DNA from: Gammaproteobacteria bacterium
GTDB taxonomy: Bacteria; Pseudomonadota; Gammaproteobacteria; Ga0077536
Direction of reading: 5' to 3'
Assembly (NCBI GenBank): GCA_024235015.1
Contig: JACKNG010000001.1
Location: forward strand, 450,905-514,904
Length of the DNA: 64,000 nucleotides
Shown: positions 36,821 to 44,619 of the stretch, piece after piece
Numbering within the stretch: the first letter of the stretch is position 1
How the letters are laid out: each line of letters begins with the position of its first letter
Notes under the pieces: generated by a model
What the model saw: only the letters and a program-made list of their open reading frames with translations
The model's database searches: none
What the model was told of the DNA's origin: nothing
Translations under genes and position numbers: made by a program

Positions 36821-37882
36821 TCAGAACGACAGCGACAGGGAAATCGAGCCGAAGTTGTGACGGTCGCGCCGCTGGCCGTCGAATTCCTTGGTACGGAACA
36901 CCTGTGCGTAGGACAGCTTGGCCGCGCGCCACACCACGCTGCCGCCGATGATGAAGTCGCCGACGGCGATCTTCTTGTCGACGTCGTGGCTGTCGGCGAA
37001 GGTGTTGCCGTCGAGGAAGATGTCGCGTCCGACCAGGCGCCCGCCGAAGGCGGCGAAACCGTAGACGCCGAGTTCGCGCGCACGCACGCCGTGCGCGCTC
37101 GATACCGCCGGTGCGTTGCTGTCGCCGCCCGGGCGGATCACCGAGGTGCCGAAATCGCGTGGCAGGTTCCAGCCGAAACGCAGTTCGCCGCCGGCGGCGA
37201 GGTAGTCGTAGACGTTGCCCAGCGCGAGGCCGGCGTGGGCGATGACGTCGCCGCTCAAGCCGGCGCCGAAATCGCGCGCGGCGAGCCGCCACTTCCGTTC
37301 GAAATACAGCACCCCACCCGGCTCGTTGTCGAGCTGGTTGTCCCAGCCGCGCGGCAGCGGCAGGTCACGGATGTCGTGGACCAGCTTCTGCGCATCCTCG
37401 GCCAGCGAGGCCGGGCCGATCATGCCGAGCTGGATCTCGAGGGTATCGGCGATGTCGGCGTTCTTGCTGACCAGGGTGAGTGCACCGTAGAGCCAGCCGG
37501 CATAGGGCCGGTCGTCGCGGATCAGCGCGGTGGCCTGGGTGTCGTCCGGGGTGTACATCATCTGGCCGAGGGCGAAGCCGACGTTGAACTCACGGCCCTG
37601 GTCGGGGAAGTAGATCTCCTCCAGCGCGTTGATGCGCGAGACGGCTCCGAGCAGCCAGGCCGGCACGCCCGGGGCGTCGGCCAGCGCGCCGAGATCGGGC
37701 GAGAGGTAGGACAGCTTCATGCCGTTGGTGTACTGCGCGTCGGTATCGCCGAAGAGGTCGTTCTCGAACGTGAACGTGACGACGTGCGGCCCCGGGTCGA
37801 AATCCGCCGGCGCCTCCGCGGCCGCCGCGGCGCAGGCAAGTAGCGCCGCCCACGCGGCGAGGGATGTCAGGCGGCGGAGCAT
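36821..37882 (-). CDS. Lipid A deacylase LpxR-family outer-membrane protein
   Basis: ENDLF..D..YTNG, GQMMYTP, DRPYAGWL, GWDNQL, DIFLDGN, terminal LSLSF. Confidence 0.88.
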   Translation of the reverse strand: MLRRLTSLAAWAALLACAAAAAEAPADFDPGPHVVTFTFENDLFGDTDAQYTNGMKLSYLSPDLGALADAPGVPAWLLGAVSRINALEEIYFPDQGREFNVGFALGQMMYTPDDTQATALIRDDRPYAGWLYGALTLVSKNADIADTLEIQLGMIGPASLAEDAQKLVHDIRDLPLPRGWDNQLDNEPGGVLYFERKWRLAARDFGAGLSGDVIAHAGLALGNVYDYLAAGGELRFGWNLPRDFGTSVIRPGGDSNAPAVSSAHGVRARELGVYGFAAFGGRLVGRDIFLDGNTFADSHDVDKKIAVGDFIIGGSVVWRAAKLSYAQVFRTKEFDGQRRDRHNFGSISLSLSF

Positions 37883-37969
37883 TGTGCGACCATCCATAGC
37901 AAATTCGGCCGCGCACTATACCAGTCGTGCCGCGCGTCAAACGGGTTTGCGTCTCAACGGGGAGCTTGT

Positions 37970-38839
37970 ATGAGCTGGATGACCATCGGCGATGTCGGCA
38001 TCGCGCGCGTGCTCGAATCGAACGGACCGTTCATGAGCATCTACGATTTCTTTCCCGACGCCACCGCGGAAGCGCTGGCGCCGCACCGCCACTGGCTGGA
38101 CGGCAGCGCGCTGGATCCCGCCAACGACATGATGCTGATGCCGATCCAGAGCTACGTCGTGCGCACACCGCGCTCGACGGTGCTGATCGACAGCTGCGTG
38201 GGCAACCACAAGTCGGTCGGCTGGTTCCCGGCCTGGGACAAGATGGATGGCCACACCTGGCAGGCCAACCTCGCCGCGCTCGACCTGCGCCCGGAAGACA
38301 TCGACGTCGTGCTGTGCACCCACCTGCACGTCGATCACAGTGGTTGGAACACGCGCCGCGTCGACGGCCGCTGGGTGCCCAACTTTCCCAATGCGCGCTA
38401 CGTCTTCTCGCGCCGCGAATGCGCCAACGCCGAGCGCATGTGGCAGAAGTACCAGGACCCCGTGTGGGTCGAGAACGTCGAGCCAGTGATCAGCGCCGGG
38501 CAGGCCGTGCTGGTCGACGACGACCACGAGATCGACGAGTACGTCCACCTCGAACCGACCCCCGGCCACACCCCGGGGCATTGCGCCGTACACGTCGCCC
38601 ATCGCGGGCAGGACGCGGTCGTCACCGGTGACCTCATCCACAGCCCGATCCAGTGCCACTATCCGCACTGGAACTTCAAGTTCGATTTCGACAAGGCACA
38701 GGCGGCGGCCACTCGCCAGGCCTTCCTGGAACGCTACACCGATTGCGCGACACGGGTGCTGACCGCCCACTTCCCGCTGCCCTCGACCGGCCACGTCCGC
38801 CGTGACGGCGCGGCCTTCCATTTCCATTACGACGCGTGA
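37970..38839 (+). CDS. Metallo-beta-lactamase-fold hydrolase (lactonase-like)
   Basis: THLHVDHSGWN, PNFPNARY, TPGHTPGH, GDLIH, AHFP. Confidence 0.9.
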   Translation: MSWMTIGDVGIARVLESNGPFMSIYDFFPDATAEALAPHRHWLDGSALDPANDMMLMPIQSYVVRTPRSTVLIDSCVGNHKSVGWFPAWDKMDGHTWQANLAALDLRPEDIDVVLCTHLHVDHSGWNTRRVDGRWVPNFPNARYVFSRRECANAERMWQKYQDPVWVENVEPVISAGQAVLVDDDHEIDEYVHLEPTPGHTPGHCAVHVAHRGQDAVVTGDLIHSPIQCHYPHWNFKFDFDKAQAAATRQAFLERYTDCATRVLTAHFPLPSTGHVRRDGAAFHFHYDA

Positions 38840-38872
38840 AGCCATGCCGGCCGCCGCGTCCCGGCGACCGGC

Positions 38873-39994
38873 TCAGGGATCGACCGGGTTGCCGTGTACG
38901 CGTTGCAGCCAGTCGACCAGCTCGGCCGCACCGAGGTGGGGCTGGAGGTCGAGCATGACCGCGGCCACGCCGCTGGCATGGGCCGCGGCGAAGGACGGTC
39001 CGGAGACGAAGTCGTAGCGCCCGTCGGGCACCGTCGTGAGCAGCTGCAGGCCGGGCACCGCGAGCCGCGCCCCGGCCACCGGGTTGGCCGGCGGATCGCT
39101 TTGCTCGACGGCGATGACCCCGGGGATCGAGGTCGGAAAGGCCTGGCCCGGTTCCTCGCCCACCGCGCCGATGACCACCGCGCCGAGCTCAATGGCGCGG
39201 CTGACCAGCCGTTCCAGCAGGGGATCCTCGGGCCCGGCCAGGCTGAGGTTGATGATGCGTGCGCGGACGTCGATGGCGTAGTCCAGCGCGCGCGCCAGGG
39301 TGTCGGTGCTGCATAGGCCGATCGCGTAGTGCGGCTCCCAGCAGGCGCGCAGGGCGAACAGCTCGGCGTCGGCCGCGAGACCGTGAATGCCGATGCCGTT
39401 CCCGGGGCGTGCCACGATCAGCCCGGCCACCGCGGTACCGTGGAACTCGGCCGGGATGGTGGCCGGGTCGCCGCCGGCGAAGTTGATGGCCTCGGTGATC
39501 TGGCCGGCCAGGTCCGGATGGGCCATGTCGATGCCGGTGTCGATCACCGCCACCCGTACCCCGCGCCCGCTGGCGTGGCGAACCAGGGTCTCGACCGCAC
39601 GCCGCTCGGTACGCATCTGCAGGTCGTAATAGGGGTCCTTGACCGGCATGCGCGGCACCCGGCCGGCCACGCGGTGGTGGCGCATGACCTGGGCGGCCTC
39701 GACCCGCGGATCGACCGCCAGGGCTGCGGCCATCGCCTGTGGATCGGCACCCGGCGCCACGGCGAACTCGACCACGTCGAGTTCGAGCGCCGCCAGGGCG
39801 TGGCGGTCGAGCATGCGCAGGTCGTGATCGCGCGCCAGCGCCGCGACCAGCGCCGGCGTCGCCTGCGCCACGGTGACGAGTAGCGCGGCATCGCGCGCGG
39901 CAGGCGCGGCGGCGGCCGGCCGACCCAGGAATCCGAGCAGTGCCGCCAGCAGCCACGGCAGCGCGACCGCGGCGACGCCGCGGCGCTGCTTCAC
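38873..39994 (-). CDS. S8 family serine peptidase (subtilase), secreted
   Basis: Signal peptide, prodomain, VAVIDTG (Asp), FHGTAVAG (His), INLSL, SGPSFAAAH (Ser). GTG start overlaps the upstream TGA. Confidence 0.9.
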   Translation of the reverse strand: MKQRRGVAAVALPWLLAALLGFLGRPAAAAPAARDAALLVTVAQATPALVAALARDHDLRMLDRHALAALELDVVEFAVAPGADPQAMAAALAVDPRVEAAQVMRHHRVAGRVPRMPVKDPYYDLQMRTERRAVETLVRHASGRGVRVAVIDTGIDMAHPDLAGQITEAINFAGGDPATIPAEFHGTAVAGLIVARPGNGIGIHGLAADAELFALRACWEPHYAIGLCSTDTLARALDYAIDVRARIINLSLAGPEDPLLERLVSRAIELGAVVIGAVGEEPGQAFPTSIPGVIAVEQSDPPANPVAGARLAVPGLQLLTTVPDGRYDFVSGPSFAAAHASGVAAVMLDLQPHLGAAELVDWLQRVHGNPVDP

Positions 39995-40677
39995 CGGCGC
40001 CGGTCCGGACGCGCTCCGATCACGCTCACCGGTTCGACGAACAGGGTGTGCGCGTCGGCGCGCAGCGCCGCGACCACCTCGTCGAGGCGGCCGGGACCCA
40101 GCGGCACGCGCACCGTCATGACGCCGATGGCCGACGGTCCGTCGACCAGTTCGGCGCCGTGCCGCGCGAGCCAGGCCGCCCGCGTCGCGCCGTCGACCTC
40201 GTCGCGCAACACCACGCGCAGCTCGGGATAGCCGATCTGGCCGGCCGGCTGGGTGGAACGCCCGAGGGTCTTGAACGGCTGGTCGAACGGCGCCATGCCG
40301 CGTTGCCCGCTCAGCACGATGGCGCCGGCGACGACGGCCGTGCCGATCAGCAGGGCCGCCCCGGCGACGAGGGGCACCGGTTCGCACACCGTGCGCAAGG
40401 CCGCCCACAGGCGCGCAACCCCGCGGCGGCGCGGTTGCAGGCGCGCTGACAGCTTGGCGTAGGCCAGGCCGCAGGCATAGTCACCCGCCGGCTGCGCCAG
40501 CGCGCGGGCCAGCACGTCGAGGCGGCGCAGCTCGCGGGTGCACACCAGGCAGGCGCTGACATGGGCGCGAACGCATTCGCGCTCGGCCTCGTCGAGGCTG
40601 CCGTTGGCGTACCACGGCAACACCGCCCAGGCGGCCTCGTGGTCGTAACCGGCCTGCCGCCGTTCAGGAGCGTGCAT
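39991..40677 (-). CDS. Zinc-finger (zf-HC2) anti-sigma factor with TM helix and periplasmic domain
   Basis: LPWYANGSL..AHVSACLVC (HxxxCxxC), TM segment PLVAGAALLIGTAVVAGAIVL. Confidence 0.88.
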   Translation of the reverse strand: MHAPERRQAGYDHEAAWAVLPWYANGSLDEAERECVRAHVSACLVCTRELRRLDVLARALAQPAGDYACGLAYAKLSARLQPRRRGVARLWAALRTVCEPVPLVAGAALLIGTAVVAGAIVLSGQRGMAPFDQPFKTLGRSTQPAGQIGYPELRVVLRDEVDGATRAAWLARHGAELVDGPSAIGVMTVRVPLGPGRLDEVVAALRADAHTLFVEPVSVIGARPDRRR

Positions 40678-41287
40678 GACGTTTCTCCTCGTCGAGCGCC
40701 TTGTCCAGTACCGGGCGCAAGCGCTCCCGGGCGTAGAACATGCGCGTCTTCACCGTGTTGACCGGACAGTCGACGATCTCGGCGATCTCGCCGTAGCTGT
40801 AGCCGTAGAAGAACGACAGCTGCACGATCGAGCGCTGGGCGAGCGGCAGGCGGGCGACGGCCACACGCAGGCGCTCGAGCAACGCGGCATCGCTGACCTG
40901 GTCGGCCGGGTCGCGGGGATCGGCGGCCTCGACCTCGACCTGCAACTCGCGCGCGGCCCGGCGTTTGCTCGCCTTCAGGCGCTTGAGCGCCTTCTTGTAG
41001 GCGATGCCGAAGATCCAGGTCGACACCTTGGACCGCCCGGCGAATTCGTCGGCCTTGCGCCAGACCACGAGCATGGTGTCGTTGATGGTCTCCTCGGCGT
41101 CGCTGGGCGAACCGAGGATGCGCAGGACGAAATCGAACAGGCGCGGGTAGAACTCGCGGTAGAGCCGCTCGAATGCCGCCGGTTCGCGCTGCAGGCGGCG
41201 CAGCGCGGCGAGGTCGCGGGCATCGTCGGCGCCGCGATCGATTGCCTCGCCTGCCGTCACCCCGGTCTGCGGTGTGCTGTCGTCCAT
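40664..41287 (-). CDS. ECF RNA polymerase sigma-70 factor
   Basis: FERLYREFYPRL, DAEETINDT, SKVSTWIFGIA, SYGEIAEIVDCPVNTVKTRMFYAR. Confidence 0.93.
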   Translation of the reverse strand: MDDSTPQTGVTAGEAIDRGADDARDLAALRRLQREPAAFERLYREFYPRLFDFVLRILGSPSDAEETINDTMLVVWRKADEFAGRSKVSTWIFGIAYKKALKRLKASKRRAARELQVEVEAADPRDPADQVSDAALLERLRVAVARLPLAQRSIVQLSFFYGYSYGEIAEIVDCPVNTVKTRMFYARERLRPVLDKALDEEKRHARS

Positions 41288-41375
41288 CGTCTCCCCTGCC
41301 GGCCGTCGCCTGTCGGTCAGGCTTAGTCCCCGCCGACCCCGTGCCGGTTCAGATAGCGCACCGTCACCGCGCGCA

Positions 41376-44189
41376 TCAGCGCAGGCGCCCGGGCTGGTTG
41401 GCGAGGAAGGCCTTGGTCATGTCGACGTAGTAGCCCACCAGGCGCTGGAGATCGGTCGGCGGACCGAGCCCGTTGCGGTTCAGGGTCCATGCGGTCGGCG
41501 AGGCCAGCGCCTGCGACAGGCTGGCACGCAGCAGGTCGCCGTCGTAGACGTTGACCGAACCGGCCCAGGAATACTGGCCGGTGGCGGTGTTCTCGTTGAC
41601 GGTGAGCCGGTAGACGACGAGGCGCAGGTTGTTCCACGTCCAGCCGGCGTCGTGCACCTGGTCACGCTTGACGATGGTGTAACCGGCAGCCTCGAACAGC
41701 GGCGCGACGGCGGCGTAGACGTCGTCGATGGTGAGGTCGTGGACCTTGAACTTGGGATCGAAGCCCCAGTAGTCGAGGACCACGCGCGGCACCGCGTTCT
41801 CCGCCGCCTCTCTCGCGCGCTGCTCGGCCGCCGCCGCCAGGCGCTCTTCCTCCGCCTTGCGCCGGGCCTGTTCCAGCAGCCGCGTGGCCTCGGCCTCCTG
41901 CGCGGCGCGGCGGCGCTGCTCTTCCGCCTGGCGCGCCTGCTCGGCCTGTGCGCGCATGGCCGCCTGGCGCGCCTCGGCCTCGGCCGCCAGCCGCGCCGTC
42001 TCGGCCTCGCGCCGACGCGTCTCGGTCGCGCTGATGTCGGCAGCCAGCAGCCGCGCCGGTTCCGACTGCGGCAACACGCTCAGCGCCCGGCTGGCGAACT
42101 GGCGCGCCTCGTCGAACTCGTCGCGGCCGAGGGCCTGGCGCGCCATGTCGAGATAGCGGTCGTGGATGCGGCGCATACCGTCACGCGCAGCCACGTTGCC
42201 CGGGTCGAGCCGGCTCACTTCCTGCAGGCGCTCGACCGCGTTGTTGCCGGCCGGCGACGTGAGGCGGTTGGCGGCGATGTCGGCGTCGGCCTGCTCGAGC
42301 AGGGTCGCGATGCTGGCATTGCGCTCGGTTTCGCTGCGCTCCTCGCGCAGGGCGTCGCCGAGCGCGACCACCGCCTTGGCGCCGGCGTCGATGAGGCTGG
42401 CATGGCCATGCCACTCGGCTGCCTCGGCGCGCTCGCCCGCGGCCAGCGCCGCCTGGCCCCGCTCGGCCATGGCGACGGCCAGCGCGGCCAGGCCGGCGGC
42501 GGCGGCGGCATTGTCCGGTTCCAGGATCTGCACCGCACGGTAGCGCGCCAGTGCGTTGTCGGTGCCGGCCCCGACCAGGCGCCCGGCGGCGACGTCGGCG
42601 GCGGCGGCATCGAGGTAGGCCTGGATGCGTTCGGCCTGGCGCGCGCGCTCGGCCTGGCGCGCCGTCGCCGCCGCCACCCGCTCGCGCAGCGCGACCAGGT
42701 CGACGGCATCCTTGGGGATCTGCCCGAGCAGGGCCGAGAGCGCGGCGAAACGCGCGTCGTCGCCGGCTGCGATGGCCTCGTCGAGCGCACTGCCGAGGCG
42801 TTCGCCGACGATACGCAGGCCGTGTGCGGCGTCCTCGTCGCCGGGGCTGTCGGCCCAGGCGCGGGCGTAGAAGGCCAGCGCGCTGCGCCCCTCGGGTTCG
42901 AAGACCTGGCCGACCGAGAGGGCACGGTCGCCCTGCGCGACCAGGCGCTCGGCACGCCCGAACTGCAACAGGTGGGTCGGCAGCAGGCCGGCATACCAGG
43001 CATAACCCCCGCCCCCCGCCACGAGCCCGAGCAGCAGCGCCAGTACCCACGGCCAGCGTCGCCGCGGCGCCGCGTCGGCTGGCGTCGCCGAACGCGGCGC
43101 GCTGCGTGACTCGGACACCCCGCCGCGACGCGAGCGCGTACCGCTCGCCGGTGCCGACGGGCGGCGGATGTCGGGATTGAGTACCGCGCCGTCCGCGATC
43201 ACCTGGGTGGGGTCGACCAGGCCGCTGTAGCGGGTCGCGCCGTCGTCGGCATACACGGTGACGAGCGCGCTTTCGGTCGGCTCGGTCGTGGGACTGGCGA
43301 AGTGGAAGGATTCGCGCCACTCCGCCACGCTCTGCGGGCGCTTCTTCTCGTTGAATTCCAGCGCGTGATCGACGGCGACGAGGAAATCGCGCGAATACTT
43401 GCCGGCACCCAGTTCGGAGGCGGAGATGAACACGTCGCGCTCGGCCTTGAGGATGGCCTCGCTGCGATCGATGGCGGCCATCGGCTGCAGACCGCTGATG
43501 CAGCGGTAGAGCGTGGCGCCGAGCCCGTAGATGTCGGTCCACGGCCCCTGGCGATCGCTCTTCGAGTAGTACTGCTCGAACGGCGCATAGCCCGGCGAGA
43601 CCACGCTGGTCAGGGTGCGTGTCTCTTCGCCCAGCGCCTGGCGCGCCGAGCCGAAGTCGAGCAGCACCGGTTGCCCGCTGTGGTTGATGTAGATGTTGGC
43701 CGGCTTGATGTCGCGATGGATGAAGCCCTGGGCGTGCATCGCCTCGAGCCCGTCGAGCAGGGGCAGGACCAGGGCCACCAGTTCCTGCTGCGGCAGGGTG
43801 CCGCGGCGGTCCAGCACCCCCTGCAGGCTGAGACCGTCCTGGTATTCCATCACCATGTAGGCGGTGTTGTTGGCTTCGAACACCGACATCACCCGCACGA
43901 TGGCCGGATGCTTGAAGCGCGCCAGGGTGCGCGCCTCGGTCAGGAAGCGCTCCAGCCCCCAGCGGTAGCGCTTGTCGTGGGCGCGCGAAGCCGGGTAGAC
44001 GGAGTGGTCGCCGTCGCGCACGGCGAGCTCCATCGGCAGGTATTCCTTGATCGCGACCGGCTGGTCGAGGTTGGTGTCGAAGGCCAGGTAGGTGATGCCG
44101 AAGCCACCCTGGCCGAGCACCTTGTCGATGCGGTACCAGTGCAGGACGTGCCCCGGCTTGAGCGCATTACGCAGCTTGTCCTCGCTCAC
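41376..44189 (-). CDS. Hanks-type Ser/Thr protein kinase with TM helix and periplasmic TPR-like repeats
   Basis: LGQGGFGITY, VAIKEY, HRDIKPANI, LDFG, PGYAPFE, DIYGLG; TM WPWVLALLLGLVAG; three NA..Y..V...P.N..A..GL-type repeats. Confidence 0.92.
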   Translation of the reverse strand: MSEDKLRNALKPGHVLHWYRIDKVLGQGGFGITYLAFDTNLDQPVAIKEYLPMELAVRDGDHSVYPASRAHDKRYRWGLERFLTEARTLARFKHPAIVRVMSVFEANNTAYMVMEYQDGLSLQGVLDRRGTLPQQELVALVLPLLDGLEAMHAQGFIHRDIKPANIYINHSGQPVLLDFGSARQALGEETRTLTSVVSPGYAPFEQYYSKSDRQGPWTDIYGLGATLYRCISGLQPMAAIDRSEAILKAERDVFISASELGAGKYSRDFLVAVDHALEFNEKKRPQSVAEWRESFHFASPTTEPTESALVTVYADDGATRYSGLVDPTQVIADGAVLNPDIRRPSAPASGTRSRRGGVSESRSAPRSATPADAAPRRRWPWVLALLLGLVAGGGGYAWYAGLLPTHLLQFGRAERLVAQGDRALSVGQVFEPEGRSALAFYARAWADSPGDEDAAHGLRIVGERLGSALDEAIAAGDDARFAALSALLGQIPKDAVDLVALRERVAAATARQAERARQAERIQAYLDAAAADVAAGRLVGAGTDNALARYRAVQILEPDNAAAAAGLAALAVAMAERGQAALAAGERAEAAEWHGHASLIDAGAKAVVALGDALREERSETERNASIATLLEQADADIAANRLTSPAGNNAVERLQEVSRLDPGNVAARDGMRRIHDRYLDMARQALGRDEFDEARQFASRALSVLPQSEPARLLAADISATETRRREAETARLAAEAEARQAAMRAQAEQARQAEEQRRRAAQEAEATRLLEQARRKAEEERLAAAAEQRAREAAENAVPRVVLDYWGFDPKFKVHDLTIDDVYAAVAPLFEAAGYTIVKRDQVHDAGWTWNNLRLVVYRLTVNENTATGQYSWAGSVNVYDGDLLRASLSQALASPTAWTLNRNGLGPPTDLQRLVGYYVDMTKAFLANQPGRLR

Positions 44190-44226
44190 GCAGCCTCCAG
44201 CGCCCGTCCCGGTCGTCGTCCCGGCA

Positions 44227-44619
44227 TCAGTCCTGCGTCTCGTAGCGCGGCTGCTTGGCCTTCACGTAGGTCTGCTTGAGCCGGATCAGCGGCCCGTCGA
44301 AGTGCAGCAGGTCGAGGCCGCGCAGGACGGTGGTGACACCGTCCTTGGTGGTGCGCAGATCCCAGCTGCTCATGACCTTGCCGCTCTCGGCGTCGACGAA
44401 GGTGTCGTCCTCGACGAACTCCATCGTGCCGAAGCGGCCTTCGAACTGCGGCTCGAACGCGGCGCGCACGGCCGCCTTGCCCTCGTTGGGCCGGCCGTTG
44501 AGCTCGTCGTACACGGCATCCTCGCTGAAGAAGGCCATGACGGCATCGAGATCGTTGCGGTTGAACGCGTCGAGAAATTCGCGCGTGCGTGCGTAGAGTT
44601 CCTGGCGGCGATCGGCCAT
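44227..44619 (-). CDS. SnoaL-like/NTF2-family protein
   Basis: FLDAFNRNDLDAVMAFFSEDAVY, RGLDLLHF. Confidence 0.85.
   Translation of the reverse strand: MADRRQELYARTREFLDAFNRNDLDAVMAFFSEDAVYDELNGRPNEGKAAVRAAFEPQFEGRFGTMEFVEDDTFVDAESGKVMSSWDLRTTKDGVTTVLRGLDLLHFDGPLIRLKQTYVKAKQPRYETQD

What the first reader, a model, noticed from the sequence alone, without database searches (positions are those of the whole stretch)
39991..40260. Anti-sigma periplasmic domain looks like a copy of a subtilase prodomain
Seen: the anti-sigma C-terminus (ELRVVLRDEVDGATRAAWLARHGAELVDGPSAIGVMTVRV..VVAALRADAHTLFVEP) has the same beta-alpha-beta-beta-alpha-beta pattern as the N-terminal prodomain of the next gene (LLVTVAQ..LVAALARDHDLRMLD..LDVVEFAV..MAAALAVDPRVEAAQV). 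Known: subtilase prodomains (I9-like) bind and inhibit their protease. Inference: the anti-sigma senses the active protease by acting as a bait or inhibitor domain, giving direct feedback on protease level.
Basis: inference. Interest (0 to 1): 0.62.

Follow-up and report, generated by a model that had tools for sequence, protein, structure and literature searches.

The report
Anti-sigma factor carrying a protease-prodomain domain
The membrane protein that silences a stress sigma factor carries, on its periplasmic side, a distant copy of the inhibitory "cap" (prodomain) of the subtilisin-type protease encoded by the next gene, which suggests a protease-to-gene-switch link for which I found no published description.

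Summary
Residues ~152-216 of the zinc-finger anti-sigma factor (39991-40677, minus strand) fold as beta-alpha-beta-beta-alpha-beta (AlphaFold core pLDDT >90). The best PDB matches are subtilisin, Tk-subtilisin and PC1/3 propeptides.

The next gene overlaps by GTGA. It encodes an S8 precursor with a confident N-terminal prodomain of the same fold.

The two domains have no BLAST similarity. Broad profiles align over 70 columns (hhalign 93%, E 2.6e-7; controls score about a third). Of 107 relatives of the anti-sigma, 74 match Pfam PF22148 (fervidolysin N-terminal prodomain). This is remote homology (~20% identity), not a recent copy.

The order ECF sigma, anti-sigma, S8 recurs in 14/14 close loci, 11 of 12 other phylum genomes and 4 further sampled loci. 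This subfamily adds an invariant C-terminal tail, G-x-R-P-D/E-R-x-R.

The mechanism is inferred. The mature protease probably docks on the prodomain-like domain and trims it. That would license RseP-type cleavage and release the sigma factor. A protective, homeostatic reading remains open.

I found no published description. Earlier notes of this scan report the same module in other genomes.

The parts
41325..41351 (-). Candidate ECF-type autoregulated promoter: TGAACC (41346-41351), 16-nt spacer, GGACT (41325-41329), about 38 nt upstream of the sigma start codon
   Evidence: TGAACC is invariant, and a GAC/AAC element lies at fixed spacing, in the otherwise diverged upstream regions of 4 loci. 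There is one match in the window against 0.05 expected. It is the only match to CTGAACC-N16-17-GGACT in the 4.66-Mb genome. No sigma-70-like promoter lies in 38600-44400. Promoter function is inferred.
40664..41287 (-). ECF sigma factor gene (207 aa); overlaps the anti-sigma start by 14 nt
   Evidence: Pfam Sigma70_r2 6e-13, Sigma70_r4_2 1e-14 and Sigma70_ECF 9e-8. NCBIfam sigma70-ECF, 89.9 bits, over its cut-off. A canonical acidic DAEE motif in region 2 can be read in the sequence.
39991..40677 (-). Single-pass zinc-finger (ZAS-type) anti-sigma factor gene, 228 aa
   Evidence: ORF and translation. zf-HC2 at residues 16-46, E 5.9e-4. 104 of 107 relatives match zf-HC2. 31 close homologues.
40540..40563 (-). 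H39-x3-C43-x2-C46 zinc-binding motif of the cytoplasmic sigma-binding domain
   Evidence: H39, C43 and C46 are nearly invariant or invariant in alignment A1.
40312..40380 (-). Predicted transmembrane segment (residues ~100-122, PVPLVAGAALLIGTAVVAGAIVL)
   Evidence: Hydrophobic stretch read from the sequence and conserved in position in A1. No dedicated TM predictor was run.
40261..40284 (-). Conserved periplasmic juxtamembrane motif D/E-Q-x-F-Q/K-T-L-G (residues 132-139); role unknown
   Evidence: F135, T137, L138 and G139 are nearly invariant in A1. The consensus is Y-x-T-L-S in the broad family A4. pLDDT is about 50 in the model.
40030..40224 (-). Prodomain-like periplasmic domain (residues 152-216), beta-alpha-beta-beta-alpha-beta
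   Evidence: AlphaFold2. Foldseek top hits are 1spb_P, 3cnq_P, 3whi, 1scj_B, 2z58_B and 9fid_D. hhalign to the S8 prodomain gives 93.4%. Relatives match PF22148.
39994..40029 (-). C-terminal tail VSVIGARPDRRR-COOH, with the subfamily-invariant motif G-x-R-P-D/E-R-x-R
   Evidence: Nearly invariant in A1 and in all 14 subfamily loci. Synonymous codon differences show selection at the protein level.
38873..39994 (-). S8 (subtilisin-family) peptidase precursor gene, 373 aa; its GTG start overlaps the anti-sigma stop (GTGA)
   Evidence: Peptidase_S8 4e-27. D152, H185, S334 and N249 are invariant in 48 homologues, as is the pair C218/C228. AlphaFold pLDDT 85.
39905..39994 (-). Predicted Sec signal peptide of the S8 precursor (residues 1-30)
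   Evidence: A basic N-terminus, a hydrophobic helix (model helix 11-23) and an Ala-rich end, read from the sequence. No lipobox Cys. No signal-peptide predictor was run.
39662..39886 (-). The S8 protein's own N-terminal prodomain (residues ~37-111)
   Evidence: AlphaFold2: b37-42, a47-56, b60-67, b72-78, a85-93, b100-109, pLDDT 96-98. The whole model best matches unautoprocessed pro-subtilisin E (3whi, 353 of 355 columns), fervidolysin 1r6v, ProN-Tk-SP and pro-Tk-subtilisin.
38876..39637 (-). S8 catalytic domain (residues ~120-373), beginning at the invariant D-P-Y-x-x-x-Q motif
   Evidence: Alignment A2; Pfam match at 143-363.
41376..44189 (-). Membrane Hanks-type Ser/Thr kinase gene (937 aa) ending 88 nt upstream of the sigma gene; an accessory neighbour, not a core part
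   Evidence: Pkinase 1.9e-38. Present upstream in 5 of 13 subfamily loci with a full flank and in L001 and L002. Not found in the short flanks (~1.5 kb) held for the distant loci.

Best explanation
The locus is an autoregulated three-gene operon: ECF sigma factor, single-pass zinc-finger anti-sigma factor, secreted S8 peptidase precursor. The periplasmic domain of the anti-sigma factor is an ancient homologue of subtilase propeptides, including the prodomain of the S8 protein made from the translationally coupled next gene.

Proposed mechanism (inferred):
1. The S8 precursor is exported, cuts off its own prodomain and destroys it.
2. The mature enzyme then docks on the anti-sigma's prodomain-like domain in the way subtilases bind propeptides and propeptide-type 'temporary inhibitors'. 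The conserved tail G-x-R-P-D-R-x-R lies at or near the active-site cleft.
3. The enzyme slowly degrades this domain.
4. Loss of the periplasmic domain is the site-1 event. It lets an RseP-type site-2 protease cut the membrane span, which frees the sigma factor to transcribe its own operon.

On this reading the S8 peptidase is the dedicated site-1 protease of its own sigma switch, recruited by prodomain mimicry.

Shown here: the fold, the homology, intact catalytic residues, the gene order and its conservation, a candidate ECF promoter, and the presence of RseP. Inferred: docking, cleavage and the direction of the switch.
For: - Fold and homology of the C-domain. For example, relative P0171 scores 38.7 bits on PF22148 at residues 157-224 (cut-off 21), and it was found with the window's C-domain profile at E 2.6e-11 in 1.8 billion proteins.
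- The S8 protein has its own prodomain, and its model resembles pro-subtilisins end to end.
- The catalytic residues D152, H185, S334 and N249 are invariant.
- The stop and start codons overlap as GTGA.
- The trio is conserved. It is present in 14 of 14 subfamily loci. In the phylum sample, 11 of the 12 other genomes with a match have it, in 12 of 13 loci; one locus has the order S8, sigma, anti-sigma. It is also present in four further sampled loci, in two of which the sigma or S8 gene is cut off by the contig end.
- 1357 representative proteins carry the domain, nearly all at the C-terminus of anti-sigma-sized proteins.
- The tail is invariant despite synonymous codon changes.
- There is a conserved TGAACC-N16-GGACT element upstream of the sigma gene, unique in the genome.
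- The genome encodes an RseP-like M50 protease, E 5e-72.
- Established knowledge: subtilisin propeptides are tight competitive inhibitors that the mature enzyme then degrades, and RseP-type proteases act only after the periplasmic domain of the anti-sigma has been trimmed.
Against: - No interaction was tested or modelled; no complex prediction was available.
- The window's own C-domain and S8 prodomain do not match PF22148 or I9 directly, so family membership rests on transitive and profile evidence.
- The Foldseek E-values are weak (best 6e-3), and generic ferredoxin-like folds (ribosomal protein S6, ACT, BLUF) also appear.
- Positive feedback of a protease on its own synthesis needs a brake that I cannot point to.
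- In distant family members the tail after the last strand has only 2-8 residues. Some of these are probably too short to reach an active site as the subtilisin propeptide C-terminus does, so tail insertion cannot be the general mechanism.
- Alignment of the tail to the S8 junction has no statistical support.
- One relative (REC-TM-domain protein P0202) has no S8 neighbour.
Confidence: 0.45

Rival explanations
1. Homeostatic (negative-feedback) sensor, closest to the first reader's idea. The prodomain-like domain is stable only when bound to mature S8, as many isolated propeptides fold only on their protease. When periplasmic S8 is scarce or titrated away by substrates, the unbound domain is degraded by housekeeping proteases (DegS, DegP or Prc type). 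RseP then cuts, the sigma factor is released and more S8 is made. When S8 is plentiful the anti-sigma is protected and the operon shuts off.
For: It rests on the same homology and gene-order evidence. It gives a self-limiting circuit without an extra brake. The invariant Arg-Pro in the tail could make a poorly cleavable, inhibitor-like segment, if it lies across the scissile position. That placement is speculative.
Against: One-to-one inhibition of the protease by its translationally coupled partner would waste the enzyme. AlphaFold models the isolated domain confidently, though that says little about stability. No direct evidence exists.
Confidence: 0.25
2. Membrane tether or latency device without signalling. 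The domain only holds mature S8 inhibited at the inner membrane as a storage or positioning function. The sigma switch responds to some other signal, for example redox through the zinc finger or the neighbouring kinase.
For: Propeptide-like domains are protease inhibitors (established knowledge). The ZAS motif is intact. A kinase lies next to the operon in this clade.
Against: It does not explain why the domain sits almost exclusively on anti-sigma factors (102 of 146 top representatives carry HxxxCxxC, and most of the rest are short fragments). The kinase is present in only 5 of 13 subfamily loci.
Confidence: 0.12
3. No physical link. The C-domain is a ferredoxin-like sensor for an unrelated ligand, and S8 is merely the regulated output of the sigma factor.
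For: The beta-alpha-beta-beta-alpha-beta fold is very common. Foldseek also lists S6, ACT and BLUF domains with similar E-values. There is no direct Pfam hit for the window's sequence.
Against: Relatives pass Pfam's own threshold for a subtilase prodomain family. The profile-profile match to the neighbour's prodomain is far above the controls. Propeptide hits have the lowest rmsd (1.9-3.2 A against 4-6 A for most others).
Confidence: 0.1
4. Trans-acting foldase. The anti-sigma domain chaperones folding of S8 in the periplasm.
For: Propeptides are intramolecular chaperones (established knowledge). The two genes are translationally coupled.
Against: S8 keeps a complete, confidently modelled prodomain of its own, so a second foldase is not needed.
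Confidence: 0.05

Closest known systems
Subtilase N-terminal propeptides and propeptide-type inhibitors (Pfam PF22148 Fervidolysin_NPro-like; MEROPS I9 / Pfam PF05922; structures 1SPB, 3CNQ, 1SCJ, 2Z58, 3WHI)
   Same: They share the beta-alpha-beta-beta-alpha-beta fold. Propeptides are the best structural matches. Relatives of the anti-sigma match PF22148 above its cut-off. The domain also keeps the conserved Glu-Pro at the end of the last strand.
   Different: The domain sits at the C-terminus of a membrane anti-sigma factor, not at the N-terminus of the protease. The window's own sequence is too diverged for a direct Pfam hit. In this subfamily it carries a 12-residue basic tail ending in a free carboxylate. 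Inhibition has not been tested.
E. coli sigmaE-RseA-DegS-RseP and B. subtilis sigmaW-RsiW-PrsW-RasP regulated intramembrane proteolysis
   Same: All have an ECF sigma factor held by a single-pass anti-sigma whose extracytoplasmic domain must be removed before an M50 site-2 protease acts. An M50 protease is present in this genome.
   Different: Here the candidate site-1 protease is an S8 subtilase encoded in the same operon. It would be recruited by a mimic of its own prodomain, not by a PDZ domain sensing porin C-termini (DegS) and not as a membrane CAAX-type protease (PrsW). Cleavage has not been shown.
ZAS-type (class I) anti-sigma factors such as RsrA, ChrR and RsiW
   Same: It has the N-terminal HxxxCxxC sigma-binding domain, and its gene overlaps the sigma gene.
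   Different: The C-terminal sensor is a protease-prodomain homologue rather than a cupin (ChrR), no sensor domain at all (RsrA), or an unrelated ectodomain.
Kinase-regulated ECF sigma factors (ECF43-type; EcfP/PknT, EcfK/PknS; PMC7826278, PMC13147305)
   Same: A membrane Hanks-type kinase gene lies directly upstream.
   Different: According to PMC7826278, those groups typically lack an anti-sigma factor. From my own recollection, they also lack the acidic region-2.2 motif. This sigma has DAEE and a cognate anti-sigma. The kinase is present in only 5 of 13 subfamily loci.

Membership tests
Subtilase propeptide superfamily (PF22148 Fervidolysin_NPro-like / I9-like) | beta-alpha-beta-beta-alpha-beta open-sandwich fold of about 70-80 residues | tested here: met
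   AlphaFold2 model with core pLDDT above 90. Foldseek top hits are 1spb_P (TM 0.70), 3cnq_P (0.72), 2z58_B (0.76, rmsd 1.9) and 3whi (rmsd 1.9).
Subtilase propeptide superfamily (PF22148 Fervidolysin_NPro-like / I9-like) | The sequence itself matches the curated family model | tested here: not met
   The window's C-domain gives no Pfam hit at E <= 10. PF22148 finds nothing in the whole genome at E <= 1.
Subtilase propeptide superfamily (PF22148 Fervidolysin_NPro-like / I9-like) | Membership through homologues (transitive) and profile-profile comparison | tested here: met
   74 of 107 relatives match PF22148 at E <= 1, best 5.1e-10. P0171 (38.7 bits) and P0218 (40 bits) exceed the 21-bit cut-off in the same region that the window's profile matches. 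hhalign to the S8 prodomain family gives 93.4%, E 2.6e-7, with controls at or below a score of 13.7.
Subtilase propeptide superfamily (PF22148 Fervidolysin_NPro-like / I9-like) | Lies N-terminal to an S8 catalytic domain in the same polypeptide and is removed by autoprocessing | tested here: not met
   It is the C-terminal domain of a separate membrane protein.
Subtilase propeptide superfamily (PF22148 Fervidolysin_NPro-like / I9-like) | Binds and inhibits the cognate mature protease | not testable with these tools
   No complex prediction or assay was available.
ZAS-type class I anti-sigma factor | N-terminal HxxxCxxC anti-sigma domain | tested here: met
   H39, C43 and C46 are conserved. zf-HC2 gives E 5.9e-4 at 20.3 bits, just under the 22.2-bit cut-off. 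104 of 107 relatives match it.
ZAS-type class I anti-sigma factor | Encoded directly after, and co-transcribed with, an ECF sigma factor gene | tested here: met
   There is a 14-nt overlap with the sigma gene. The sigma gene lies upstream in every related locus checked whose upstream flank is held.
S8 subtilase precursor (the neighbouring gene) | Asp-His-Ser triad and oxyanion Asn | tested here: met
   D152, H185, S334 and N249 are invariant in 48 homologues. Peptidase_S8 gives 4e-27.
S8 subtilase precursor (the neighbouring gene) | N-terminal propeptide packed on the catalytic domain | tested here: met
   The model has the prodomain at 37-109 with pLDDT 96-98. The best whole-chain matches are unprocessed pro-subtilisins, fervidolysin and ProN-Tk-SP. 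Sequence models support this only weakly: 2 of 48 homologues hit PF22148, best E 0.0015.
Regulated intramembrane proteolysis of an anti-sigma factor (RseA/RsiW type) | A site-2 (M50, RseP-type) protease is present in the genome | tested here: met
   PF02163 match with E 5e-72, in a 454-aa open frame on contig C8.
Regulated intramembrane proteolysis of an anti-sigma factor (RseA/RsiW type) | Signal-dependent site-1 cleavage of the periplasmic domain | not testable with these tools
   This needs cleavage assays or in vivo stability measurements.
Kinase-regulated ECF sigma factors (ECF43-like) | No cognate anti-sigma factor; a conserved adjacent Ser/Thr kinase | tested here: not met
   An anti-sigma factor is present. 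The kinase is present in only 5 of 13 subfamily loci. The group definition is taken from PMC7826278.

The most novel reading that the evidence does not exclude
A secreted S8 subtilase is the dedicated site-1 protease, or the obligate ligand, of its own ECF anti-sigma factor. It is recruited because the anti-sigma displays a pre-cleaved mimic of the protease's prodomain. In this subfamily the mimic would include the processing junction, in the form of the invariant free C-terminal tail G-x-R-P-D-R-x-R. That would be a new class of trans-envelope signalling in which zymogen activation is read out directly as transcription. By the count it would be spread over more than a thousand protein clusters.
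Probability: 0.4. Interest if true: 0.8.

Novelty: new variant of a known kind. Interest (0 to 1): 0.64.

Why it matters
ECF sigma/anti-sigma pairs are one of the main bacterial signalling systems. For most of them the sensed signal and the site-1 protease are unknown. Here the sensor domain can be read from the sequence: it is a homologue of the inhibitory prodomain of the protease encoded in the same operon.

That yields a directly testable wiring of protease binding or cleavage, then anti-sigma loss, then sigma release. I found no published description of it. The family is large: 1357 representative clusters.

It would add subtilases to the short list of site-1 proteases. It would also show a new use of prodomain mimicry, and could provide a compact, orthogonal protease-responsive gene switch.

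The organism is an uncultured, non-pathogenic-looking environmental gammaproteobacterium, so the interest is mechanistic.

Tried and rejected
- BLASTP of the two domains gave no alignment.
- phmmer and a profile search against PDB sequences gave nothing meaningful.
- Pfam on the window's own C-domain and on the S8 prodomain gave no I9 or PF22148 hit. PF22148 against the whole genome gave no hit.
- hmmsearch of the narrow C-domain profile against 120 S8 homologues gave only weak hits of 7 bits or less. They fall mostly in register on the N-terminal region but are individually insignificant.
- Aligning the tail to the S8 processing junction places G221 on G111 and P224 on P114, but with zero confidence. 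I do not rely on it.
- The genome-contig scan used a single narrow peptide pattern and returned only the close subfamily, so it says nothing about wider taxonomy.
- A second weak match to the C-domain profile in the same genome (contig C3, E 0.017) has no Pfam support. I treat it as chance.
- I considered direct kinase control of the sigma factor and set it aside as the core mechanism. An anti-sigma is present, the DAEE motif is present, and the kinase is in only 5 of 13 loci.
- The supplement of the ECF classification paper, which describes the gene neighbourhoods of each group, is not held. I could not check whether this group is listed there with an S8 neighbour.
Full report
**What is at the coordinates**

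On the minus strand the window carries four co-oriented genes:
- a 937-aa membrane Ser/Thr kinase (41376-44189);
- an ECF sigma factor (40664-41287);
- a 228-aa anti-sigma factor (39991-40677);
- a 373-aa S8 peptidase (38873-39994).

The sigma and anti-sigma genes overlap by 14 nt. The anti-sigma stop and the S8 GTG start overlap as GTGA.

Pfam and NCBIfam confirm the kinase, the ECF sigma and the S8 family. They also give a borderline zf-HC2 match at residues 16-46 of the anti-sigma.

The finding's interval, 39991-40260, encodes residues 140-228 of the anti-sigma. This is the part beyond the single hydrophobic span (residues ~100-122), so it is periplasmic.

**Is the secondary-structure resemblance real?**

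AlphaFold2 on an alignment of 22 C-domains gives strand 152-157, helix 163-172, strand 176-179, strand 186-190, helix 198-207 and strand 211-216. Block pLDDT is 81-94 across this core. The linker in front and the last ~12 residues are poorly defined.

AlphaFold2 of the whole S8 protein (48-sequence alignment, mean pLDDT 85) gives the same order of elements at residues 37-109, with pLDDT 96-98. A low-confidence linker follows (119-130), then the catalytic domain. The beta-alpha-beta-beta-alpha-beta pattern is therefore present in both proteins.

**Is it more than a common fold?**

Three lines of evidence say yes.

1. *Structure search.* Foldseek of the C-domain model against the PDB puts the subtilisin BPN' prosegment first (1spb_P, E 6e-3, TM 0.70). 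Next come prosubtilisin (3cnq_P), pro-subtilisin E (3whi, rmsd 1.9 A), 1scj_B, the Tk-subtilisin propeptide (2z58_B, TM 0.76, rmsd 1.9 A) and the PC1/3 prodomain (9fid_D). Generic ferredoxin-like proteins (S6, ACT, BLUF) also appear, mostly with rmsd of 4-6 A. No hit reaches E 1e-3, so this alone is only suggestive.

2. *Profile comparison.* BLASTP finds nothing. Narrow profiles give only p = 5e-4. Broad profiles (176 C-domains, 110 S8 N-terminal regions) align over 70 columns covering all six elements. The probability is 93.4%, E is 2.6e-7 and the score is 38.6. Reversed profiles and 30 column-shuffled profiles score at most 13.7.

3. *Curated family membership of relatives.* A profile search of 1.84 billion representative proteins with the C-domain found 1357 proteins at E <= 1e-3. 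Almost all have the domain at the C-terminus of 200-250-aa proteins. Of the top 146, 102 carry HxxxCxxC. Of 107 such relatives, 104 match zf-HC2 and 74 match Pfam PF22148, 'Fervidolysin N-terminal prodomain' (best E 5.1e-10). P0171 scores 38.7 bits (cut-off 21) at residues 157-224, the same region the window's profile matches.

The window's own domain is too diverged for a direct Pfam hit. Identity to the neighbour's prodomain is about 20%. The right description is 'ancient homologue of subtilase prodomains', not 'copy'.

I tested it here independently.

**The neighbouring S8 protein is a normal precursor**
- D152, H185, S334 and the oxyanion N249 are invariant in 48 homologues. So is the pair C218/C228, which could form a disulfide and would then fit a periplasmic protein (my inference, not tested).
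- The whole-chain model best matches unautoprocessed pro-subtilisin E (353 of 355 columns), fervidolysin, ProN-Tk-SP and pro-Tk-subtilisin. The N-terminal domain therefore sits where a propeptide sits.
- Sequence models barely see it: 2 of 48 homologues hit PF22148, best E 0.0015.

**Gene context**

| Sample | Result |
|---|---|
| Close subfamily, 14 loci (all uncultured Gammaproteobacteria/Pseudomonadota MAGs) | sigma, anti-sigma, S8 in this order in all 13 complete loci; the truncated 14th shows anti-sigma then S8 |
| Even sample of 401 genomes of the phylum | 13 genomes carry the domain; of the 12 besides the window's own, 11 have the ECF sigma, anti-sigma, S8 trio (12 of 13 loci; G159 has two copies) |
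| Four further loci of relatives (P0035, P0171, P0260, P0175) | sigma, anti-sigma, S8 where the contig allows: sigma is cut off at P0035, and at P0171 the downstream gene is cut and unidentified |

In the phylum sample, one of the loci with the trio has the order S8, sigma, anti-sigma. The only locus without an S8 gene is the weakest hit (E 9e-4). The trios lie in many different families and in unrelated neighbourhoods.

One exception is a receiver-domain/TM/prodomain-like protein without an S8 neighbour.

The kinase is not part of the core. It lies upstream in only 5 of 13 subfamily loci. It was not seen in the short flanks held for the distant loci.

**Operon signals**

Upstream of the sigma gene, TGAACC is invariant in four diverged loci, with a GAC/AAC element at fixed spacing. 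In the window it reads TGAACC-N16-GGACT (41325-41351). That is one match against 0.05 expected in the window. It is the only match to CTGAACC-N16-17-GGACT in the 4.66-Mb genome. No sigma-70-like promoter lies in the region.

This fits an autoregulated ECF promoter whose main output is the operon itself. That is an inference, and the strictness of the pattern limits the regulon claim.

The genome encodes an RseP-type M50 protease (E 5e-72).

**A feature specific to this subfamily**

After the last strand (T-L-F-V-E-P) comes a 12-residue tail. It ends the protein with G-x-R-P-D/E-R-x-R-COOH. The motif is nearly invariant in 29 homologues of 40-76% identity and in all 14 subfamily loci.

The codons differ synonymously between loci. 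Selection therefore acts on the peptide, not on the overlapping S8 start region.

The S8 family has its own invariant junction, H-x-V-A-G-M-P-P-K-D-P-Y-F. A relaxed alignment puts the tail's G221 on G111 of the junction and P224 on P114, but with no statistical support.

In distant relatives the tail has only 2-8 residues. The globular domain is therefore the general feature, and insertion of the tail into the active site can at most be a subfamily elaboration.

A second conserved element, (D/E)-Q-x-F-Q-T-L-G, lies just outside the membrane (residues 132-139; Y-x-T-L-S in the broad family). It is unexplained.

**Mechanism**

From established knowledge of subtilases, propeptides and I9-type proteins bind the mature enzyme tightly through their sheet face and C-terminus. 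They inhibit the enzyme and are then degraded by it.

From established knowledge of ECF systems, RseP-type proteases cut a single-pass anti-sigma only after its periplasmic domain has been trimmed.

Combining these with the anatomy shown here, I think the most likely sequence is this (0.45):
1. Mature S8 docks on the anti-sigma's prodomain-like domain.
2. S8 degrades the domain, which is the site-1 cleavage.
3. RseP cuts the membrane span.
4. The sigma factor is released and transcribes the operon.

In it, bound S8 protects the domain, and a lack of free S8 exposes it to housekeeping proteases. Tether-only, unrelated-ligand and trans-foldase readings are less likely.

No tool available here could model or test the complex. 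The direction of the switch is open.

**Comparison with what is known, and novelty**

The parts are known kinds: a ZAS anti-sigma, an ECF sigma, an S8 precursor, a prodomain fold and RIP logic. The domain combination zf-HC2 plus PF22148 is implicit in Pfam hits on public proteins.

Five full-text searches found no paper describing an anti-sigma factor with a subtilase-prodomain sensor, or a subtilase as its site-1 protease. [quoted passage not shown] The supplement of the ECF classification paper was not available.

Earlier notes of this scan report the same module in at least six other genomes. They are leads, not independent evidence, but they agree with what I measured.

I rate this as a new variant of a known kind, of moderate-to-high interest. 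This window adds a subfamily with an invariant basic C-terminal tail and, in part of the clade, an adjacent membrane kinase.

Noticed in passing
window 40261-40284 (-), anti-sigma residues 132-139: A conserved periplasmic juxtamembrane motif, (D/E)-Q-x-F-Q/K-T-L-G (Y-x-T-L-S in the broad family), lies between the membrane span and the prodomain-like domain. It has low pLDDT. It could be a cleavage or docking site.
   Followed up: partly
window 41376-44189 (-): A 937-aa membrane Hanks-type kinase with a long helical periplasmic part ends 88 nt upstream of the sigma gene, outside the candidate ECF promoter. It is conserved upstream in only 5 of 13 subfamily loci, and one of those (L001/L032) has a short 408-aa version. 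The sigma keeps the acidic DAEE motif, so direct phospho-activation seems unnecessary.
   Followed up: partly
P0202 / L035:1091-1891: A relative of the C-domain is fused to a response-regulator receiver domain and a membrane span instead of a zinc-finger anti-sigma domain. It has no S8 gene next to it; the upstream gene looks like a SCO1/cytochrome c protein.
   Followed up: partly
P0218 (528 aa, metagenome protein): This protein appears by eye to carry three tandem prodomain-like repeats; the searches report two matched stretches and one PF22148 match at 40 bits. It ends in a degenerate segment that resembles the start of an S8 domain. It may be truncated or a pseudo-protease.
   Followed up: no
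L010 and L020 (genome G159, C1:1282525 and C1:2288196): One genome carries two nearly identical copies of the sigma, anti-sigma, S8 trio about 1 Mb apart on opposite strands.
   Followed up: no
L012 (genome G230): The gene order is permuted here. An S8 gene ends just upstream of the sigma gene (S8, sigma, anti-sigma), and no S8 gene follows the anti-sigma within 1.5 kb.
   Followed up: partly
L029 (CAMCBY010000020.1): A contig carrying this trio is titled 'MAG: Klebsiella pneumoniae'. Every other carrier but L030 (titled uncultured Rhodocyclaceae) is an unclassified Gammaproteobacteria or Pseudomonadota MAG. The label is probably a binning or naming error.
   Followed up: no
window 36821-38839 and homologous loci L001, L002, L005: Downstream of the S8 gene, the neighbours are syntenic across the clade: an MBL-fold hydrolase (opposite strand), an LpxR-like outer-membrane lipid A deacylase and a second MBL-fold protein. 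A link to the sigma regulon was not examined.
   Followed up: no
G000:C3:29295-29453 (L007): This is a second, weak match (E 0.017) of the C-domain profile in the same genome, inside a 318-aa open frame with no Pfam hit. It is probably chance.
   Followed up: partly
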